6,214 nucleotides of DNA from positions 1 through 6,214 of the IMG/VR virus record IMGVR_UViG_2690316115_000003, one strand, 5' to 3'. The notes under the pieces were generated by a model that was not told the DNA's origin, made no database searches, and worked only from the letters and a program-made list of their open reading frames with translations. This stretch comes from a virus. Taxonomy: Duplodnaviria; Heunggongvirae; Uroviricota; Caudoviricetes. Position numbers and translations under genes: made by a program. Of this stretch, positions 1-5,833 are shown one piece after another. Every line of letters starts with the position of its first letter. Within the stretch, counting starts at the first letter, position 1.

Positions 1-46
1 CTGCCCGTTGACGGACTTCAGGGGAAAAACGAGTATTTTTAGTCAT
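1..46 (-). CDS. IS3-family transposase OrfA, first 15 codons only (partial, runs off the left edge)
   Basis: Minus-strand ATG at 46..44 preceded by AAGAGGTAAACAGG (GAGG Shine-Dalgarno). Translation is [15 protein letters not shown]..., which I recognise as the N-terminus of IS629/IS1203-type OrfA. Too short for the ORF track. Confidence 0.65.
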
Positions 47-100
47 CCTGTTTACCTCTTTCTCAGGAAGTTTAGTCTCCAGGATTCCCGGGGCGGTTCA
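1..100 (-). mobile_element. Terminal ~100 bp of an IS3-family insertion sequence (IS629/IS1203-like); the rest lies left of the window
   Basis: The reverse complement of 1..100 begins TGAACCGCCCCGGGAATCCTGGAGACTAAACTTCCTGAG, a 5'-TG terminal repeat of the kind IS3-family elements carry. About 54 bp inside that end a minus-strand ATG opens the OrfA-like reading frame. The boundary at 100/101 is placed from recall of IS629-type ends, not from an alignment. Confidence 0.65.
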
Positions 101-166
101 AATTGTAACCCACAGATTTGCAGAGTGGGCTGTGGGTGATTTCAACCGGCAGAAGGAGACAGTCCT

Positions 167-346
167 TTGCAACAAGTTAACCGCTGGTTCAAAGATCACT
201 ACGGAGTGCCCGTCAGAGTCATTCGTTGGGAACCGGAAACACAACGGGTTATCTACCTCCGCGAAGGCTATGAGCATGAGTGCTTCAGCCCGCTCGAACA
301 GTTTCGTCGTAAATTCAGGGAAATAGAGGTCGGTCATGAGCACTAA
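167..346 (+). CDS. Small hypothetical protein (59 aa, TTG start), translationally coupled to the downstream replication gene
   Basis: Reading frame open from 140 to the TAA at 344..346. TTG at 167 lies 7 nt after AAGGAGA (153..159). Translation (M)[58 protein letters not shown] looks like a real protein, unlike the Ser-rich frame of the listed 132..326 ORF. Its stop overlaps the ATG of the next gene by 11 nt. No ATG start exists, so this is uncertain. Confidence 0.35.
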
Positions 347-1277
347 ATTAACCGGCTATGTATGGGATGGTTGCGCTGCGTCAGGCATGAAGTTATCCAG
401 CGTGGCAATTATGGCCCGCCTGGCTGATTTCAGTAATGACGAAGGTGTGTGCTGGCCATCAATTGAAACCATTGCCCGCCAGATTGGCGCGGGGATGAGT
501 ACCGTCAGAACGGCTATCGCACGGCTGGAAGCAGAAGGCTGGTTAACGCGTAAGGCGCGTCGCCAGGGTAACCGCAATGCGTCGAATGTTTATCAGCTTA
601 ACGTTGCGAAGCTTCAGGCAGCGGCATTTTCTCAACTGTCAGATTCTGACCCGTCAAAATCTGACGCATCAAAATCTGACCCGTCAAAATTTGATGCGTC
701 GAAATCTGGCAAAAAAGCGGGTTTTCACCCGTCAGAATCTGGCGGGGATCCGTCAGTAAAATCAAAACATGATCCGTCAGATAAAAAACCTTCTCGTCCG
801 GACGCTTCGCAACCGGACACGCAGACGGATGAACAGGATTTTTTAACTCGCCATCCTGATGCGGTTGTATTCAGCCCTAAAAAGCGCCAGTGGGGAACGC
901 AGGATGATTTGACCTGCGCACAGTGGCTCTGGAAAAAAATCATCGCCCTGTACGAGCAGGCCGCCGAATGTGACGGCGAGGTGGTTCGTCCCAAAGAACC
1001 GAACTGGACAGCCTGGGCAAACGAAATTCGCCTGATGTGTGTGCAGGATGGTCGTACTCACAAACAAATCTGCGAGATGTACAGCCGCGTCAGCCGCGAT
1101 CCGTTCTGGTGCCGTAACGTGCTCAGCCCGTCGAAGTTGCGGGAAAAATGGGATGAGCTTTCCCTGCGCTTATCGCCGTCCGTCAGCACGCACACAGAAA
1201 AACGCGAAGACCCGTACTTCAAAGCCAGTTACGACAATGTGGACTACAGCCAGATCCCGGAAGGATTCAGGGGGTGA
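336..1277 (+). CDS. Phage replication initiation protein, O-like (N-terminal winged-helix DNA-binding domain, repeat-rich linker, C-terminal domain); resembles defective-prophage YfdO-type proteins
   Basis: ATG at 336 preceded by AGAGGT. N-terminus [73 protein letters not shown] is a typical winged-helix segment of lambdoid replication initiators. The central region encodes DPSKSD/ASKSD pentapeptide repeats over a DNA iteron array. Gene order (initiator, YfdN-like, methyltransferase) matches the CPS-53-type replication region as I remember it. Confidence 0.75.
   Translation: MSTKLTGYVWDGCAASGMKLSSVAIMARLADFSNDEGVCWPSIETIARQIGAGMSTVRTAIARLEAEGWLTRKARRQGNRNASNVYQLNVAKLQAAAFSQLSDSDPSKSDASKSDPSKFDASKSGKKAGFHPSESGGDPSVKSKHDPSDKKPSRPDASQPDTQTDEQDFLTRHPDAVVFSPKKRQWGTQDDLTCAQWLWKKIIALYEQAAECDGEVVRPKEPNWTAWANEIRLMCVQDGRTHKQICEMYSRVSRDPFWCRNVLSPSKLREKWDELSLRLSPSVSTHTEKREDPYFKASYDNVDYSQIPEGFRG
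638..790 (+). repeat. Iteron-like array inside the O-like gene: about 8 copies of a ~15-bp unit CCGTCA(A/G)AATCTGAC with internal dyad symmetry (GTCA...TGAC); putative phage replication origin
   Basis: Direct reading: five tandem units across 638..710 (GTCAGATTCTGAC, then CCGTCAAAATCTGAC, GCATCAAAATCTGAC, CCGTCAAAATTTGAT, GCGTCGAAATCTGGC), then after an A-tract spacer (GGCAAAAAAGCGGGTTTTCAC) further units at 729..743, 750..764 and 774..788, ending in GATAAAAAACC. In lambda the origin iterons lie inside gene O in the same relative position. Confidence 0.5.
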
Positions 1278-1768
1278 TCATGAGTCTTTTGAATGAAGTT
1301 CAGAAATTCATTGAAGCCCATCCGGGCTGTACTTCCGGAGACATTGCGGATGCTTTTGCAGGTTACTCACGGCAGCGCGTACTGCAGTCAGCAAGCAGGT
1401 TACGTCAGAGTGGGCGTGTGGCTCACCGTTGTGAAGGGGATACACGCAGACATTTCCCGCGTCTGACTGAGAGAGCGCAGGAGCCGGAACCACAACCAGT
1501 TCGTGAAACCAGACCTGTGCGCAATTTCTATGTCGTCACTAACGATCCCCGGGTGATTTTGTGCCTGACCCGCCAGGCTGAAGAACTGGAGTCAAGAGGC
1601 TTATACCGTCGTGCTGCAACCGTGTGGATGGCGGCATTCCGTGAAAGCCACTCCCAGCCAGAACGAAACAATTTTCTGGCACGTCGTGAGCGGTGCTTAC
1701 GGAAAAGCAGCAAGCGCGCTGCATCGGGTGAAGAGTGGTATCTGTCAGGGAATTACGTGGGGGCTTAA
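1274..1768 (+). CDS. Hypothetical prophage protein, YfdN-like (164 aa); N-terminal winged-helix-like segment, C-terminal PerC-like motif
   Basis: GTG at 1274 or, more likely, ATG at 1280 (AGGGGG just upstream); 164 aa from GTG matches the length I recall for K-12 YfdN. The stop at 1766..1768 overlaps the next start as TAATG. The C-terminal segment LTRQAEELESRGLYRRAATVWMAAF resembles the conserved core I associate with PerC/Pch-type small regulators (recall, not search). Confidence 0.6.
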   Translation: MIMSLLNEVQKFIEAHPGCTSGDIADAFAGYSRQRVLQSASRLRQSGRVAHRCEGDTRRHFPRLTERAQEPEPQPVRETRPVRNFYVVTNDPRVILCLTRQAEELESRGLYRRAATVWMAAFRESHSQPERNNFLARRERCLRKSSKRAASGEEWYLSGNYVGA

Positions 1769-2421
1769 TGAGTAATAAATATTGCCGGGCGCTGGTGGAA
1801 CTGCGGAACAAACCAGCCCATGAACTGAAGGACGTGGGCGATCAGTGGCGCACGCCGGATAATATTTTCTGGGGAATTAACACCCTGTTTGGTCCGTTTG
1901 TTCTGGATCTGTTCACTGACGGTGATAACGCCAAATGTGCCGCGTATTACACGGCGGAAGACAACGCGCTGGCGCATGACTGGTCAGAACGTCTTGCGGA
2001 GCTTAAAGGTGCTGCCTTTGGCAATCCCCCGTACAGCCGCGCCAGTCAGCATGAGGGGCAATACATCACCGGCATGCGTTACATCATGAAGCATGCCAGT
2101 GCCATGCGTGATAAAGGCGGGCGCTATGTTTTCCTGATCAAAGCTGCCACCAGCGAAGTGTGGTGGCCGGAAGATGCAGATCATATTGCTTTTATTCGCG
2201 GGCGTATTGGTTTTGAACTGCCTGCCTGGTTTATCCCGAAAGACGAAAAGCAGGTGCCAACAGGTGCTTTCTTCGCTGGTGCTATTGCTGTTTTCGACAA
2301 GACCTGGAAGGGACCGGCAATCAGCTACATCGGGCGCGATGAACTTGAGGCATGTGGTGAGGCATTTCTGGCGCAGGTTCGCCAGCAGGCGGAAAAACTG
2401 GTCAGGGAGATGGTGGCATGA
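1768..2421 (+). CDS. Phage DNA N6-adenine methyltransferase (Dam-like orphan methyltransferase)
   Basis: ATG at 1768 shares its A with the upstream TAA (TAATG). The ORF track starts the frame at GTG 1735, but the internal ATG is preferred. Catalytic-type motif NPPY is present (AAFGNPPYSR, near 2012..2035). Overall resembles phage Dam-family methyltransferases of lambdoid nin regions, including YfdM of CPS-53. Confidence 0.8.
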   Translation: MSNKYCRALVELRNKPAHELKDVGDQWRTPDNIFWGINTLFGPFVLDLFTDGDNAKCAAYYTAEDNALAHDWSERLAELKGAAFGNPPYSRASQHEGQYITGMRYIMKHASAMRDKGGRYVFLIKAATSEVWWPEDADHIAFIRGRIGFELPAWFIPKDEKQVPTGAFFAGAIAVFDKTWKGPAISYIGRDELEACGEAFLAQVRQQAEKLVREMVA

Positions 2422-4638: not shown

Positions 4639-5010
4639 ATGCGTGATATTCAAATGGTTCTTGAACGTTGGGGGGCATGGGTGGCAAATAATCACGAGGA
4701 TGTGGAATGGTCATCTGTTGCTGCAGGTTTTAAGGGATTAATTCCTTCGAAAGTAAAATCCCGCCCGCAATGTAGCGATGACGATGGCCTGATCATTAGC
4801 TCTGCGATGACAGTTCTTAAGAAAAAGGAACCGTATCAATACGAATTACTGGAAATGTATTATGTGTATGGGGTTACATTACGGGTATTGGGGGTAAAAC
4901 TGGGGATATCACTTAATCAGGTTGTTATCAGACTGCAGAAAGCTGAAGGGTTTATTGACGGTTGTCTGGCAATGTTGGGGGTATCTTTAGAAATTGATTG
5001 TTACATATAG
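4639..5010 (+). CDS. Late-gene antitermination protein Q, short phage-21/QuuD-type (123 aa)
   Basis: ATG at 4639 with GGAG 7 nt upstream (the track begins at 4624). N-terminus MRDIQMVLERWGAWVANNHEDVEWSSVAAGFKGLIPSKVKSRPQC closely matches what I recall of DLP12 QuuD-type Q proteins. Gene order (rusA ... Q) is canonical for lambdoid phages. Confidence 0.75.
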   Translation: MRDIQMVLERWGAWVANNHEDVEWSSVAAGFKGLIPSKVKSRPQCSDDDGLIISSAMTVLKKKEPYQYELLEMYYVYGVTLRVLGVKLGISLNQVVIRLQKAEGFIDGCLAMLGVSLEIDCYI

Positions 5011-5047
5011 TAATAAATTCAATCAAAGTAAATAATCATATTTTATT

Positions 5048-5084
5048 ATAACCTCCTGATGATACCTGTTCATTGGGAGGTTAT
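5048..5084 (+). promoter_or_regulatory. Shine-Dalgarno-sequestering hairpin in the 5' leader of the AT-rich orphan gene
   Basis: AUAACCUCC (5048..5056) is perfectly complementary over 9 bp to GGAGGUUAU (5076..5084), which contains the GGAGG Shine-Dalgarno of the ORF starting at 5086; the loop is 19 nt. Pairing was checked base by base. Confidence 0.4.
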
Positions 5085-5085
5085 T

Positions 5086-5703
5086 ATGGATAAAAATGTA
5101 GAGCATGTATTAGTTGATGCAATTGAAAATAAGCAATCTTTAACAGTCGTTTACTTAGGAGGGAGCCAGCCCGGAACATTAAGGAATATTTCTCCGATTA
5201 GTATAAATGGGGATAAATTGCGGGCAAGATGCCATAGTTCTGGAGCAGTAAAGGTTTTCAATCTTGGGAAAATACAGTTACCCAGTGACTCCTGCGCGGT
5301 ATCTATGCACTATGGAGATTTAAAAGTTAAAGCTTATGAGACGATGCAGAGCGTAAATGACAACTTTCATGCCCTTTATCCTGAAGGACGATGGGGTGTT
5401 GATTTTAATGAGCATCGCTTTGCTTTATTTGATTTTTTTAAAAACGGGAAACGAAAAAAAACGGCATTTATGGCAATTGAGTTCAGGGAAAGAGATGAAG
5501 AGAAAATAATAACAGGTGTAACAATTGATATTGGTATATCTGGAACAGTGATTTCTGAGAAGTCCCGAATCCCAAAAAGACGACCATGGGTAGTGGTTGG
5601 TCCCGAACACGGAGAATACAGTACTTATTCAACTTTGGACAAGGCTGCTACAGCGTTTTTTGAGAGGCTTTCGTTGATAGCATCCGGCCTGGAAGATAAT
5701 TGA
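5086..5703 (+). CDS. Orphan hypothetical protein (205 aa) in an AT-rich cargo block downstream of Q; function unknown
   Basis: ATG at 5086 lies 5 nt after GGGAGG; the in-frame ATG at 5059 has no Shine-Dalgarno. Hand-counted G+C is 19/60 for 5101..5160 versus 32/60 for 2401..2460. The frame stays open for 206 codons despite the AT richness. I recognise no family; the segment VVYLGGSQPGTLRNISPISINGDKLRARCHSSGAVKVFNLGKIQL has spacing loosely reminiscent of WYL/SH3-like beta-barrel domains (weak). Confidence 0.7.
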   Translation: MDKNVEHVLVDAIENKQSLTVVYLGGSQPGTLRNISPISINGDKLRARCHSSGAVKVFNLGKIQLPSDSCAVSMHYGDLKVKAYETMQSVNDNFHALYPEGRWGVDFNEHRFALFDFFKNGKRKKTAFMAIEFRERDEEKIITGVTIDIGISGTVISEKSRIPKRRPWVVVGPEHGEYSTYSTLDKAATAFFERLSLIASGLEDN

Positions 5704-5776
5704 TTTTATGTTTGGTATTCAGAGTTCGCCGTGCTTAAGAAAGTCAAGATTCTAAAAATACTGAATGAGCTACTTG

Positions 5777-5785
5777 TGTTATAAC
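5777..5785 (+). promoter_or_regulatory. Extended -10-like element TGtTATAAC (possible sigma70 promoter; weak -35)
   Basis: TGTTATAAC at 5777..5785 matches TGnTATAAT in 8 of 9 positions. The best -35 at 17-bp spacing (AATACT, 5757..5762) matches only 2 of 6. It sits about 50 nt upstream of a strong terminator, so any transcript would be short (about 65 nt). AT-rich DNA produces such matches by chance. Confidence 0.25.
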
Positions 5786-5833
5786 AAAAATGCTATTAGT
5801 GTGTTAAGAGTGGTTACTTCGCCACACAACTTA

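What the first reader, a model, noticed from the sequence alone, without database searches (positions are those of the whole stretch)
638..790. Iteron array with dyad symmetry embedded in the O-like gene: putative prophage origin
About eight copies of a ~15-bp unit CCGTCA(A/G)AATCTGAC lie inside the linker-coding part of the replication initiator gene and translate as DPSKSD/ASKSD repeats; the array is followed by A-tracts. This mirrors lambda, where the origin iterons sit inside gene O and are bound by the O N-terminal domain. The 15-bp period and the GTCA...TGAC half-sites give a concrete, testable binding-site model. Separately, no P/DnaC-type helicase loader follows the initiator (the next gene is the YfdN-like protein), so how this module recruits a helicase is unclear.
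Basis: partly seen in the sequence, partly recalled or inferred. Interest (0 to 1): 0.5.

Follow-up and report, generated by a model that had tools for sequence, protein, structure and literature searches.

The report
Replication origin inside phage initiator gene
The repeats are almost certainly the binding sites that form the replication origin of an SfII/SfIV-type temperate phage, built on the classic lambda plan (origin inside the initiator gene) but with a different DNA-binding domain, tighter 15-bp site spacing and no phage-encoded helicase loader.

Summary
The repeat is real, but there are six full 15-bp units, not eight: five in tandem at 636-710 and one at 729-743. The pattern gives 9 matches against 0.32 expected by chance. 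Each unit is a 13-bp dyad, GTCAGA-n-TCTGAC.

The host gene (336-1277) is a lambdoid O protein. Its C-domain is homologous to the lambda O C-domain (E=8e-26). Its N-domain is an HTH_36 winged helix, not Pfam Phage_rep_O.

- **Repeats follow the N-domain.** Across about 70 homologous loci the repeat tracks the N-domain, not the C-domain.
- **The constraint is on DNA.** Repeat codons are fixed (Ser TCA/TCT 86% against 29% elsewhere). In phage P27 the last unit is kept in a different reading frame.
- **The method was checked.** The same scan recovers the four annotated lambda iterons.

The two extra "copies" (747-761, 771-785) are a separate GATC-containing element. It is shared by different iteron types and overlaps the least stable DNA of the gene, where lambda has its AT-rich region.

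No P, DnaC or helicase gene is present. Literature already flags such "O-only" lambdoid phages as not understood. The O C-terminal tail type predicted P presence perfectly in my sample.

It is a variant of a known kind, of moderate interest.

The parts
336..1277 (+). Replication initiator gene (313 aa), a lambdoid O-type protein with an HTH_36 N-domain
   Evidence: ORF list. Pfam HTH_36 42.9 bits against cut-off 25, and no Phage_rep_O hit. PHROG 391 'replication initiation O-like' E=1e-135. 98-99% identical to genes of phages Kati, SfIV and SfII.
336..632 (+). N-terminal winged-helix DNA-binding domain (aa 1-99); predicted recognition helix aa 54-66, wing aa 70-88
636..650 (+). Iteron 1 (CTGTCAGATTCTGAC); its core 638-650 is a perfect 6-1-6 palindrome
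651..665 (+). Iteron 2 (CCGTCAAAATCTGAC), 0 mismatches to the consensus
666..680 (+). Iteron 3 (GCATCAAAATCTGAC)
681..695 (+). Iteron 4 (CCGTCAAAATTTGAT)
696..710 (+). Iteron 5 (GCGTCGAAATCTGGC), degenerate with 3 mismatches
711..728 (.). 18-bp spacer with an A6 run and a T4 run (AAAAAAGCGGGTTTTCAC). The A-run and GTTTT(C/G)AC are conserved in relatives. The terminator-like hairpin on the minus strand is not conserved.
729..743 (+). Iteron 6 (CCGTCAGAATCTGGC), an isolated unit at a fixed distance from the GATC element. It is replaced by the type-specific repeat in relatives with other N-domain types. In phage P27 it is kept as DNA in another reading frame.
747..761 (+). Conserved element 1, GATCCGTCAGTAAAA (contains a Dam site)
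771..785 (+). Conserved element 2, GATCCGTCAGATAAA (contains a Dam site)
757..786 (.). Least stable 30-mer of the gene; candidate DNA-unwinding element, in the position of the lambda AT-rich region
   Evidence: Nearest-neighbour profile. In 16 of 24 O-family genes, lambda included, the least stable 30-mer starts within -3 to +31 nt of the last iteron.
790..818 (+). Start of the shared C-terminal module (SRPDASQPD; direct repeat CTTCTCGTCCGGAC/CTTCGCAACCGGAC). It aligns with lambda SSENSGESSD, the palindrome to the right of the lambda AT-rich region. Likely recombination joint between modules.
819..1175 (+). C-terminal helical domain (aa 162-280), homologous to the lambda O C-domain
1239..1274 (+). 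C-terminal tail VDYSQIPEGFRG; this tail type occurs only in O genes that are not followed by a P homologue
1274..1768 (+). Next gene, YfdN/PerC-family (context only). It overlaps the initiator stop codon and is not a helicase loader. It is absent from several relatives that keep the same origin.

Best explanation
The array is the initiator-binding part of the replication origin of an SfII/SfIV/Kati-type lambdoid temperate phage (or prophage).

**Proposed mechanism**
- The gene 336-1277 encodes an O-type initiator.
- Its N-terminal winged-helix domain (aa 1-99), probably as a dimer, binds each 13-bp dyad GTCAGA-n-TCTGAC. The GTCA and TGAC tetranucleotides lie about 9 bp apart.
- Six such sites lie in the DNA that encodes the disordered linker of the same protein: five at 15-bp centre-to-centre spacing and one more 33 bp further on.
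- Cooperative occupation would build an O-some-like complex.
- That complex would destabilise the adjacent least stable segment (747-790), which carries two conserved GATC-headed repeats.
- The lambda-O-like C-domain with its IPxGFRG tail would then bring in the host replicative helicase without a phage P protein.

**What is shown here**
- The repeat anatomy.
- Homology of the C-domain to lambda O.
- Covariation of the repeat with the N-domain.
- DNA-level constraint on the repeats.
- The position of the least stable segment.
- Absence of a recognisable loader gene.

**What is inferred**
- Binding of the N-domain to the units and its stoichiometry.
- Unwinding at 747-790.
- Origin activity.
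- Any route of helicase recruitment.
For: 1. **More than chance and localised.** 9 matches against 0.32 expected, all in 636-745. The motif is confined to this gene in 29 kb of SfIV.

2. **A lambdoid O gene.** The C-domain matches lambda O at E=8e-26. Gene order is cI/cro/cII-like, then O..., RusA..., Q.

3. **Positive control.** The same repeat scan recovers the four annotated lambda iterons.

4. **General rule.** The 31 representative O-family genes sampled from the loci nearly all carry 3-7 copies of their own repeat in the linker.

5. **Covariation.**
 - L026 has a 97% identical C-domain and an unrelated N-domain: 0 type-A motifs.
 - phiNP, Flotzy and YeP1 have an 81-88% identical N-domain and an unrelated C-domain: 4 type-A motifs each.
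 - N-domain variants at about 62-66% identity carry different dyads at the same 15-bp spacing: GGTCAATGGTTGACC (L024) and GTTCAGATTCTGAAC (L028).

6. **DNA-level constraint.**
 - In a linker defined by peptide alone, Ser is TCA or TCT in 150 of 174 codons, against 87 of 295 elsewhere in the same genes. Lys is AAA in 70 of 71, against 133 of 214.
 - The motif TCAAAATCTGAC is kept from Escherichia to Klebsiella, Citrobacter, Pantoea, Providencia and Yersinia.
 - In phage P27 a compensated frameshift changes the peptide (TLQNL instead of PSESG) but keeps the DNA of the last unit.

7. **Functional context.** SfIV, SfII and Kati are deposited as phage genomes with this gene at 98-99% identity.

8. 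**Position of the unwinding candidate.** The least stable 30-mer of the gene starts 12 nt after the last unit. In lambda the figure is +13, and 16 of 24 family members fall within -3 to +31.

9. **Linker.** The iteron-coded peptide is predicted disordered, as expected for a sequence selected as DNA.
Against: - There is no experiment on this family in the searched literature. Binding, unwinding and origin function are all inferred.
- The region after the array is much less AT-rich than in lambda (z=2.0 against 3.4).
- A 15-bp spacing puts neighbouring sites on nearly opposite faces of the helix. Most relatives use about two turns (20-24 bp). The complex may therefore not resemble the lambda O-some.
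- No DnaA boxes are enriched and no helicase loader is present, so the downstream steps are unknown.
- O-only lambdoid phages may depend heavily on recombination-dependent replication (PMC12315714).
- The codon and covariation statistics use related sequences and tandemly duplicated units, so their p-values are indicative only. The unit-based matrix is circular in how it selects units.
Confidence: 0.8

Rival explanations
1. The units are real binding sites for the N-domain, but they act mainly in autoregulation, copy control or handcuffing, or as a roadblock. Replication would start elsewhere or be mostly recombination-dependent.
For: - Iterons of plasmids serve both initiation and negative control (established knowledge of iteron plasmids).
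- The adjacent unwinding candidate is weak.
- No loader or helicase is encoded.
- O-only lambdoid phages are described as not understood, in a paper centred on recombination-dependent growth.
Against: - The architecture is the same, element for element, as lambda ori: domain, iterons, least stable segment, C-module.
- No second cluster of the motif exists elsewhere in the window or in 29 kb of SfIV.
Confidence: 0.1
2. The repeat is a low-complexity expansion of a flexible Ser/Lys/Asp-rich linker. It would be selected, if at all, at the protein level. The DNA periodicity would be a by-product of slippage.
For: - The peptide is predicted disordered.
- Copy number varies between alleles and species, from 4 to 9 units plus collapsed alleles. 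That variation is what slippage produces.
Against: - The repeat changes with the N-domain type while the C-domain stays 97% identical.
- Synonymous positions are the most conserved.
- The units are palindromes.
- The P27 frameshift keeps the DNA but not the peptide.
- Unrelated N-domain types each have their own repeat, encoding quite different peptides.
Confidence: 0.04
3. In this particular window the element is a relic. The prophage copy is defective and the array no longer functions, whatever its ancestry.
For: - Many chromosomal alleles are decayed: collapsed arrays (P0015, P0017, P0033), an N-terminally truncated yfdO-type copy in K-12-like strains, and IS insertions.
- The window matches a Shigella flexneri chromosome at 99% (L013).
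Against: - The window gene is intact.
- It carries the full set of six units and is 98.9-99.2% identical to the gene of the deposited phage genomes SfIV and Kati.
- The downstream early genes are intact ORFs.
Confidence: 0.06

Closest known systems
Bacteriophage lambda ori and O protein
   Same: - Origin inside the initiator gene.
- Several dyad-symmetric initiator sites in the linker-coding DNA between an N-terminal DNA-binding domain and a C-terminal domain.
- The least stable DNA lies just 3' of the sites.
- The C-domain is homologous (E=8e-26).
- The following stretch aligns with the lambda SSENSGESSD palindrome region.
- Same place in the early right operon.
   Different: - The N-domain is HTH_36, not Phage_rep_O.
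- Six 13-bp dyads at 15-bp spacing, against four 18-19-bp sites at 20-24 bp.
- A weak AT-rich segment carrying two conserved GATC repeats, instead of a 40-bp AT block.
- A C-terminal tail IPxGFRG instead of NTDWIYGVDL.
- No P gene.
O-only lambdoid phages (phage LLS and 34 of 314 Enterobacteriales lambdoid phages; Genome Res 2025, PMC12315714)
   Same: The replication module has a single O homologue and no helicase or loader. The authors state that replication of this type is not understood.
   Different: I could not check whether SfII, SfIV or Kati are among those 34, because the supplement is not held. That paper does not describe iterons or the tail motif in the passages retrieved.
Origins of Stx phages 933W and 'P27' with six lambda-type iterons (PMC7466680)
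   Same: Copy number of in-gene iterons varies between relatives. The extra iterons lengthen the O linker. Synonymous iteron mutations abolish plasmid replication, which is the experiment needed here.
   Different: Those phages have lambda-type iterons (ATCCCTCAAAACGAGGGA) and a P protein. The 'P27' studied there is not the phiP27 L17 gene (AJ298298) used in my comparison.
Iteron plasmids with winged-helix Rep proteins (pSC101 RepA, R6K pi, RK2 TrfA, P1 RepA) - from established knowledge, not tested here
   Same: - A winged-helix initiator binds directly repeated sites next to an unwinding element.
- Helicase is recruited by contact with host DnaB/DnaC, with no dedicated loader on the replicon.
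- The P1 origin carries GATC repeats and depends on Dam methylation.
   Different: - Plasmid iterons lie outside the rep gene and are usually about 17-22 bp.
- They are accompanied by DnaA boxes. None are enriched here.
- No sequence homology beyond the generic winged-helix fold.
Other initiators sharing the same N-domain and origin module: phiNP, Flotzy and YeP1 (Phg_2220_C C-domain); phiP27 L17 (followed by DnaC plus helicase); and SfV orf39, which has a more distant HTH_36 N-domain
   Same: - phiNP, Flotzy, YeP1 and P27 L17 keep the type-A iterons and the twin GATC element.
- SfV orf39 has a more distant HTH_36 N-domain with its own repeats, and the same tail and downstream genes.
   Different: - The C-terminal domains are unrelated.
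- P27 has three GATC elements and its own loader and helicase.

Membership tests
Lambdoid O-type replication initiator | C-terminal domain homologous to the lambda O C-domain | tested here: met
   BLASTP of the window protein against lambda O: E=8e-26, 31% identity over 216 aa, about 44% in the core.
Lambdoid O-type replication initiator | N-terminal DNA-binding domain of Pfam family Phage_rep_O (PF04492) | tested here: not met
   The window protein has no PF04492 hit and matches HTH_36 instead. Lambda O, run as a control, hits PF04492 at residues 22-115.
Lambdoid O-type replication initiator | Initiator-binding repeats inside its own coding sequence, between the two domains | tested here: met
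   Six units at 636-743, coding aa 101-136. Same position as the lambda iterons in the family-wide scan.
Lambdoid O-type replication initiator | AT-rich unwinding region directly 3' of the repeats | tested here: inconclusive
   The least stable 30-mer of the gene is at 757-786, 12 nt after the last unit, as in lambda (+13). It is only 27% GC over 30 nt with z=2.0, against z=3.4 in lambda.
Lambdoid O-type replication initiator | Partner helicase-loader gene (P) immediately downstream | tested here: not met
   The next genes are YfdN/PerC, Dam and RusA. tblastn with six P homologues finds nothing downstream. SfIV has no annotated or PHROG-detectable loader or helicase in the 29.3 kb examined (record positions 10443-39758, which include the whole early region).
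Lambdoid O-type replication initiator | Specific binding of the N-domain to the repeats, and origin activity | not testable with these tools
   Needs EMSA or footprinting and a replication assay.
Iteron-type origin (general) | Three or more same-orientation repeats at regular spacing, more than chance | tested here: met
   Spacings 15, 15, 15, 15 and 33 bp. 9 matches against 0.32 expected, with 0 of 200 shuffles reaching 9.
Iteron-type origin (general) | Repeat sequence co-varies with the DNA-binding domain of the cognate initiator | tested here: met
   Same N-domain with a different C-domain keeps the motif. Same C-domain (97% identical) with a different N-domain loses it. More than ten N-domain types each have their own repeat.
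Iteron-type origin (general) | DnaA boxes near the repeats (typical of plasmid iteron origins) | tested here: not met
   TTWTNCACA with up to 1 mismatch: 13 hits against 11.9 expected in the window, none within 600-900.
Pfam HTH_36 (PF13730) | Score above the gathering threshold | tested here: met
   42.9 bits against cut-off 25, residues 23-70. The fold is confirmed as winged helix.
PHROG 391 'replication initiation O-like' | Full-length profile match | tested here: met
   E=1.1e-135, residues 1-313 against profile positions 1-298 of 298.
Plain low-complexity or slippage repeat | Conservation only at the peptide level; synonymous sites free to drift; no link to a DNA-binding domain | tested here: not met
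   Codon fixation, out-of-frame conservation in P27 and covariation with the N-domain.

The most novel reading that the evidence does not exclude
The O-only replication module works without a phage loader because the last 10-12 residues of the initiator, (D)YSxIPxGFRG, form a portable docking motif. It would recruit a host replication factor directly, most plausibly DnaB-DnaC, and so replace the O-P contact.

Support:
- In my sample every O-family gene with a Trp-rich lambda-like tail is followed by a P homologue (about 30 of 30).
- None with the GFRG tail (0 of 20) or with a long helical extension (0 of 10) is followed by one (after correcting three regex misclassifications by eye).
- The GFRG tail also ends initiators with two unrelated C-domain folds: SfV orf39, and phiNP/Flotzy.

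In the same reading, the twin GATCCGTCAG element (747-785) is a Dam-sensitive unwinding or sequestration element. It is conserved across iteron types. Its Asp codon is GAT at every Asp position I read off the 19 aligned sequences (37 positions, my own count), against 110 GAT to 86 GAC elsewhere in these genes. It would be served by the phage's own Dam gene (1735-2421).
Probability: 0.3. Interest if true: 0.65.

Novelty: new variant of a known kind. Interest (0 to 1): 0.4.

Why it matters
Origins of temperate phages are rarely annotated. Here the gene is labelled only 'helix-turn-helix domain-containing protein' in most genomes, although it occurs in more than a thousand complete E. coli genomes.

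The analysis gives a base-level origin model for the SfII/SfIV group of serotype-converting Shigella phages and their Klebsiella, Citrobacter, Pantoea, Providencia and Yersinia relatives.

It also turns a published open question into specific experiments. That question is how lambdoid phages with only an O gene load a helicase. The candidates to test are the tail motif, the twin GATC element and the 15-bp site packing.

The basic principle, a lambda-type origin inside O with specificity carried by the N-domain, has been known since the late 1970s. The main finding is therefore an extension of that principle, not a surprise.

Tried and rejected
- **Is unit 729-743 the universal lambda 'right-arm' palindrome?** It resembles lambda CGTCAGAGAATTCTGGCGAATCC. 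Rejected: in relatives with other iteron types this position holds their own repeat, and the lambda palindrome aligns with 791-818 instead.
- **DnaA boxes.** At chance level, none near the array.
- **Rfam, gathering threshold.** No RNA family in the window.
- **Promoters and terminators.** No promoter-like site in 1-1500. A terminator-like hairpin on the minus strand at 718-731 is not conserved in the Klebsiella homologue and is treated as chance.
- **ORFs across the array.** The other-frame ORF 577-759 (+) and the opposite-strand ORF 598-765 (-) are by-products of the repeat.
- **PDB sequence search.** Only weak MarR-type hits to the N-domain.
- **Plasmid collection.** The hits are prophage-like or phage-sized records. 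A 16-kb circular record carries a more distant O-like gene plus a DnaC-like gene. None gives independent proof of autonomous replication.
- **Literature.** No paper in the searchable library describes this origin. The term 'initiator-solo', which I recalled from memory, was not found.
- **Unit-based position matrix.** It selects units by DNA match and is therefore circular. I rely on the peptide-defined count.
Full report
**What the window is**

The 6.2-kb window is the early-right operon of a lambdoid temperate phage. The gene order is:
- a DUF4222 gene
- the initiator (336-1277)
- a YfdN/PerC-family gene
- Dam methylase
- RusA
- a KilA-N protein
- DUF968/HNH
- antiterminator Q
- a WYL-like ORF

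The initiator gene is 99.2% identical to that of Escherichia phage Kati, 98.9% to Shigella phage SfIV and 98.8% to SfII. It is 99% identical to a Shigella flexneri chromosome (L013). A place covering at least 80% of window 1-1800 occurs in 1,544 of 5,426 complete E. coli genomes, usually annotated only as 'helix-turn-helix domain-containing protein'. In a related E. coli prophage the genes upstream are cI-like, Cro and a YmfL (CII-like) regulator.

**Checking the observation**

Tandem Repeats Finder reports a 15-bp period at 645-708 (4.3 copies, 81% matches). A 30-bp period fits better (88%).

All lie in 636-745. The expectation from dinucleotide-preserving shuffles is 0.32, and none of 200 shuffles reaches nine.

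These correspond to six units: five head-to-tail at 636-710, and one at 729-743 after an 18-bp spacer. The core of each unit is a 13-bp dyad. 638-650 (GTCAGATTCTGAC) is a perfect 6-1-6 palindrome.

The array begins with GTCA and the isolated sixth unit stands alone. This fixes the register as GTCAGA-n-TCTGAC rather than the equally palindromic junction TGAC-nn-GTCA.

The units are in frame and encode (D)PSKSD/ASKSD.

As shown below, they are a different element.

**What the gene is**

The N-terminal 100 residues match Pfam HTH_36 (42.9 bits, cut-off 25) and not Phage_rep_O. PHROGs places the whole protein in family 391, 'replication initiation O-like' (E=1e-135).

BLASTP against lambda O gives E=8e-26 over the C-terminal two thirds. 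Conserved blocks include PDAxxxS..WGTxxDLTxAxW, WANxIRLM..DGRxH and NVLSPxKLRxKW. Lambda O, used as a control, hits Phage_rep_O only at residues 22-115. Pfam has no model for the C-domain, which explains the uninformative public annotation.

An AlphaFold2 model on a 57-sequence alignment gives:
- a winged-helix domain at 1-99
- a disordered stretch at 102-161, which is the iteron-coded part plus the following element
- a confident helical domain at 162-280

The protein is therefore a lambdoid O in which the N-terminal DNA-binding module has been exchanged.

**Comparative test of the iteron reading**

A scan of one genome per species with the conserved C-domain peptides returned 80 loci. Eleven annotated phage loci were added.

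A simple repeat scan of the linker was validated on lambda, where it returned exactly the four annotated iterons. It finds 3-7 copies of a repeat in nearly every family member. The repeat differs between N-domain types:
- Phage_rep_O types
- several HTH_36 types
- at least four N-domains with no Pfam match

The decisive contrasts are:
- L026 has a C-domain 112/115 identical to the window but an unrelated N-domain. It has no type-A motif and carries its own 23-bp-period repeat.
- phiNP, Flotzy and YeP1 have N-domains 79-86/98 identical and unrelated C-domains (Phg_2220_C). Each keeps four type-A motifs.

N-domain variants about 62-66% identical to the window carry different dyads at the same 15- or 30-bp spacing. 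Examples are GGTCAATGGTTGACC in L024 and GTTCAGATTCTGAAC in L028. Their recognition helix and wing differ from the window: STVRTAIA/RRQGNRNASN against TTVSAAID/RKSGGRNLSN and STVITAIT/RRNGQRSGTN. The repeat therefore travels with the DNA-binding domain.

**DNA constraint or peptide constraint**

I defined the linker by peptide landmarks only, which avoids circularity. Fourteen type-A genes from six genera were used.
- Ser is TCA or TCT in 150 of 174 linker codons, against 87 of 295 elsewhere in the same genes.
- Lys is AAA in 70 of 71 linker codons, against 133 of 214 elsewhere.

In phage phiP27 gene L17, a 1-nt deletion and a 22-nt insertion put the last unit into another reading frame. The peptide becomes TLQNL instead of PSESG, while the DNA TTTTGACCCTTCAGAATCTGG is retained.

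Copy number varies from four to nine. Some prophage alleles have in-frame collapses of the array. From established knowledge, this resembles the lambda ori-minus deletions r93, r96 and r99. The K-12-type yfdO copy keeps the array but has lost the N-domain: homology starts at window position 569.

These statistics come from related sequences and duplicated units. They are indicative rather than exact. Together with the frameshift case, however, they exclude a purely peptide-level explanation.

**The element after the array**

Aligning the region downstream of the last iteron across iteron types A, B, C and E shows a conserved DNA element, GATCCGTCAG(T/A)WA. It is present twice: spacing 24 bp in type A and 18 bp in the others, with three copies in P27. 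Its sequence does not change when the iterons change, so these are not iterons.

The Asp codon is GAT at every Asp position I read off the 19 sequences of that alignment (37 positions, my own count). This preserves a GATC site. Elsewhere in these genes the count is 110 GAT to 86 GAC.

The least stable 30-mer of the whole gene, 757-786, overlaps these repeats and starts 12 nt after the last iteron. In lambda the known AT-rich region starts at +13. In 16 of 24 family members the least stable 30-mer of the gene starts within -3 to +31 of the last repeat.

By position, this is the counterpart of the lambda unwinding region, although it is weaker (z=2.0 against 3.4). The next stretch (790-818, SRPDASQPD) aligns with lambda SSENSGESSD, the palindrome to the right of the AT-rich region. 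It marks the start of the shared C-module.

**Helicase loading**

The window contains no P, DnaC or helicase gene.

In the 29.3 kb of SfIV I examined, which include the whole early region, there is none among the annotated genes or among ten hypothetical early genes scanned with PHROGs. The first 10.4 kb of that record were not examined.

Relatives with the same origin are followed directly by a methylase, without the YfdN-like gene. YfdN is therefore not a hidden loader.

A 2025 paper states that 34 of 314 Enterobacteriales lambdoid phages encode only an O homologue. [quoted passage not shown]

In my sample the extreme C-terminus of O predicts the partner. Counts are after correcting by eye the regex misclassification of L061/L065 and L049-L051:
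- About 30 genes have Trp-rich tails (lambda NTDWIYGVDL, HWNSPEAWENTL and similar) or other short non-GFR tails. All have a P homologue downstream by tblastn.
- None of 20 genes with an IPxGFRG tail has one.
- None of 10 genes with a long helical extension has one.

The GFRG tail also ends SfV orf39 and the phiNP and Flotzy initiators, whose C-domains are unrelated. This suggests a portable docking motif.

Part of its conservation could instead reflect a shared recombination joint and a ribosome-binding site for the overlapping downstream gene. The last 76 nt of the gene are 94-96% identical in many otherwise different phages. I treat the docking idea as a lead, not a result.

**Mechanism proposed and its status**

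Shown:
- anatomy
- homology
- covariation
- DNA-level constraint
- position of the least stable segment
- absence of a loader gene

Inferred:
- Dimers of the winged-helix domain bind the six dyads.
- The 15-bp packing places neighbours on nearly opposite faces (15 bp is about 1.4 turns). The complex is therefore probably not a lambda-like wrapped O-some.
- Occupation strains and opens 747-790.
- The C-domain and tail recruit host DnaB, directly or through DnaC.
- Dam methylation of the twin GATC sites may modulate firing, as in oriC and P1 oriR (established knowledge).

**Comparison with the known, and verdict**

The element works like lambda ori and belongs to the lambdoid O family by its C-domain and architecture. 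It fails two classical features: the Phage_rep_O N-domain and the P partner.

It is best described as a variant of a known kind. I found no description of this origin in the searchable literature. The 'P27' origin studied in PMC7466680 has lambda-type iterons and is a different gene.

- Confidence that the array is the initiator-binding part of the phage origin: about 0.8.
- Interest: moderate (0.4). The principle is classical. The O-only problem and the tail and GATC observations give concrete experiments.

Noticed in passing
window 1239-1274 (tail VDYSQIPEGFRG); loci L013-L092: The last 10-20 residues of O-family initiators predict whether a lambda P homologue follows. With Trp-rich lambda-like tails P is always present (about 30 of 30). 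With IPxGFRG tails it never is (0 of 20), nor with long helical extensions (0 of 10). The GFRG tail also ends initiators with unrelated C-domains (SfV orf39, phiNP, Flotzy).
   Followed up: partly
window 747-761 and 771-785: A twin element GATCCGTCAG(T/A)WA is conserved across relatives whose iterons differ. The Asp codon is GAT at every Asp position I read off the 19 aligned sequences (37, my own count), so the Dam site is kept. The phage carries its own Dam gene at 1735-2421. P27 has three copies.
   Followed up: partly
proteins P0015, P0017, P0030, P0033; L014 2501-3205: Chromosomal alleles show in-frame collapses of the iteron array down to one or two units. One such Salmonella allele is seen on 128 contigs. 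The K-12-type yfdO copy keeps the array and C-domain but lacks the N-domain. These are probably origin-defective or initiator-defective prophages.
   Followed up: partly
L009 2831-2975 (phage phiP27 gene L17): A compensated frameshift (1-nt deletion, 22-nt insertion) re-reads the last iteron as TLQNL instead of PSESG while keeping its DNA. This gene is followed by DnaC-like and helicase genes, unlike the window.
   Followed up: yes
window 4987-5800: The least stable, AT-richest DNA of the window (z up to 4.1) lies just after the Q gene. It holds a 214-aa ORF (5059-5703) with a sub-threshold WYL-domain hit, annotated 'WYL domain-containing protein' in a related prophage. It looks like an inserted accessory gene.
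   Followed up: no
L094 (NZ_CP148542.1, 15,977 bp circular record): An E. coli 'plasmid' made only of lambdoid immunity, replication (a distant O-like gene plus a DnaC-like ATPase), Q and lysis genes. It is either a natural lambda-dv-like replicon or an assembly artefact.
   Followed up: no
E. coli hits H2 and H3: In some O157 and other strains the matched region, which spans this initiator gene, also contains an IS3-family element (IS1203).
   Followed up: no
window 709-731, minus strand: A terminator-like hairpin (CGGGTGAAAACCCG followed by a T run) lies in the spacer between iterons 5 and 6. The stem is not conserved in the Klebsiella homologue, so it is probably chance.
   Followed up: partly
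loci: Most O-family repeats have a 20-24 bp period. Only the HTH_36 types A, B and C use 15 bp, or 30 bp with alternating units. The SfV-type HTH_36 initiators use 21-24 bp.
   Followed up: partly
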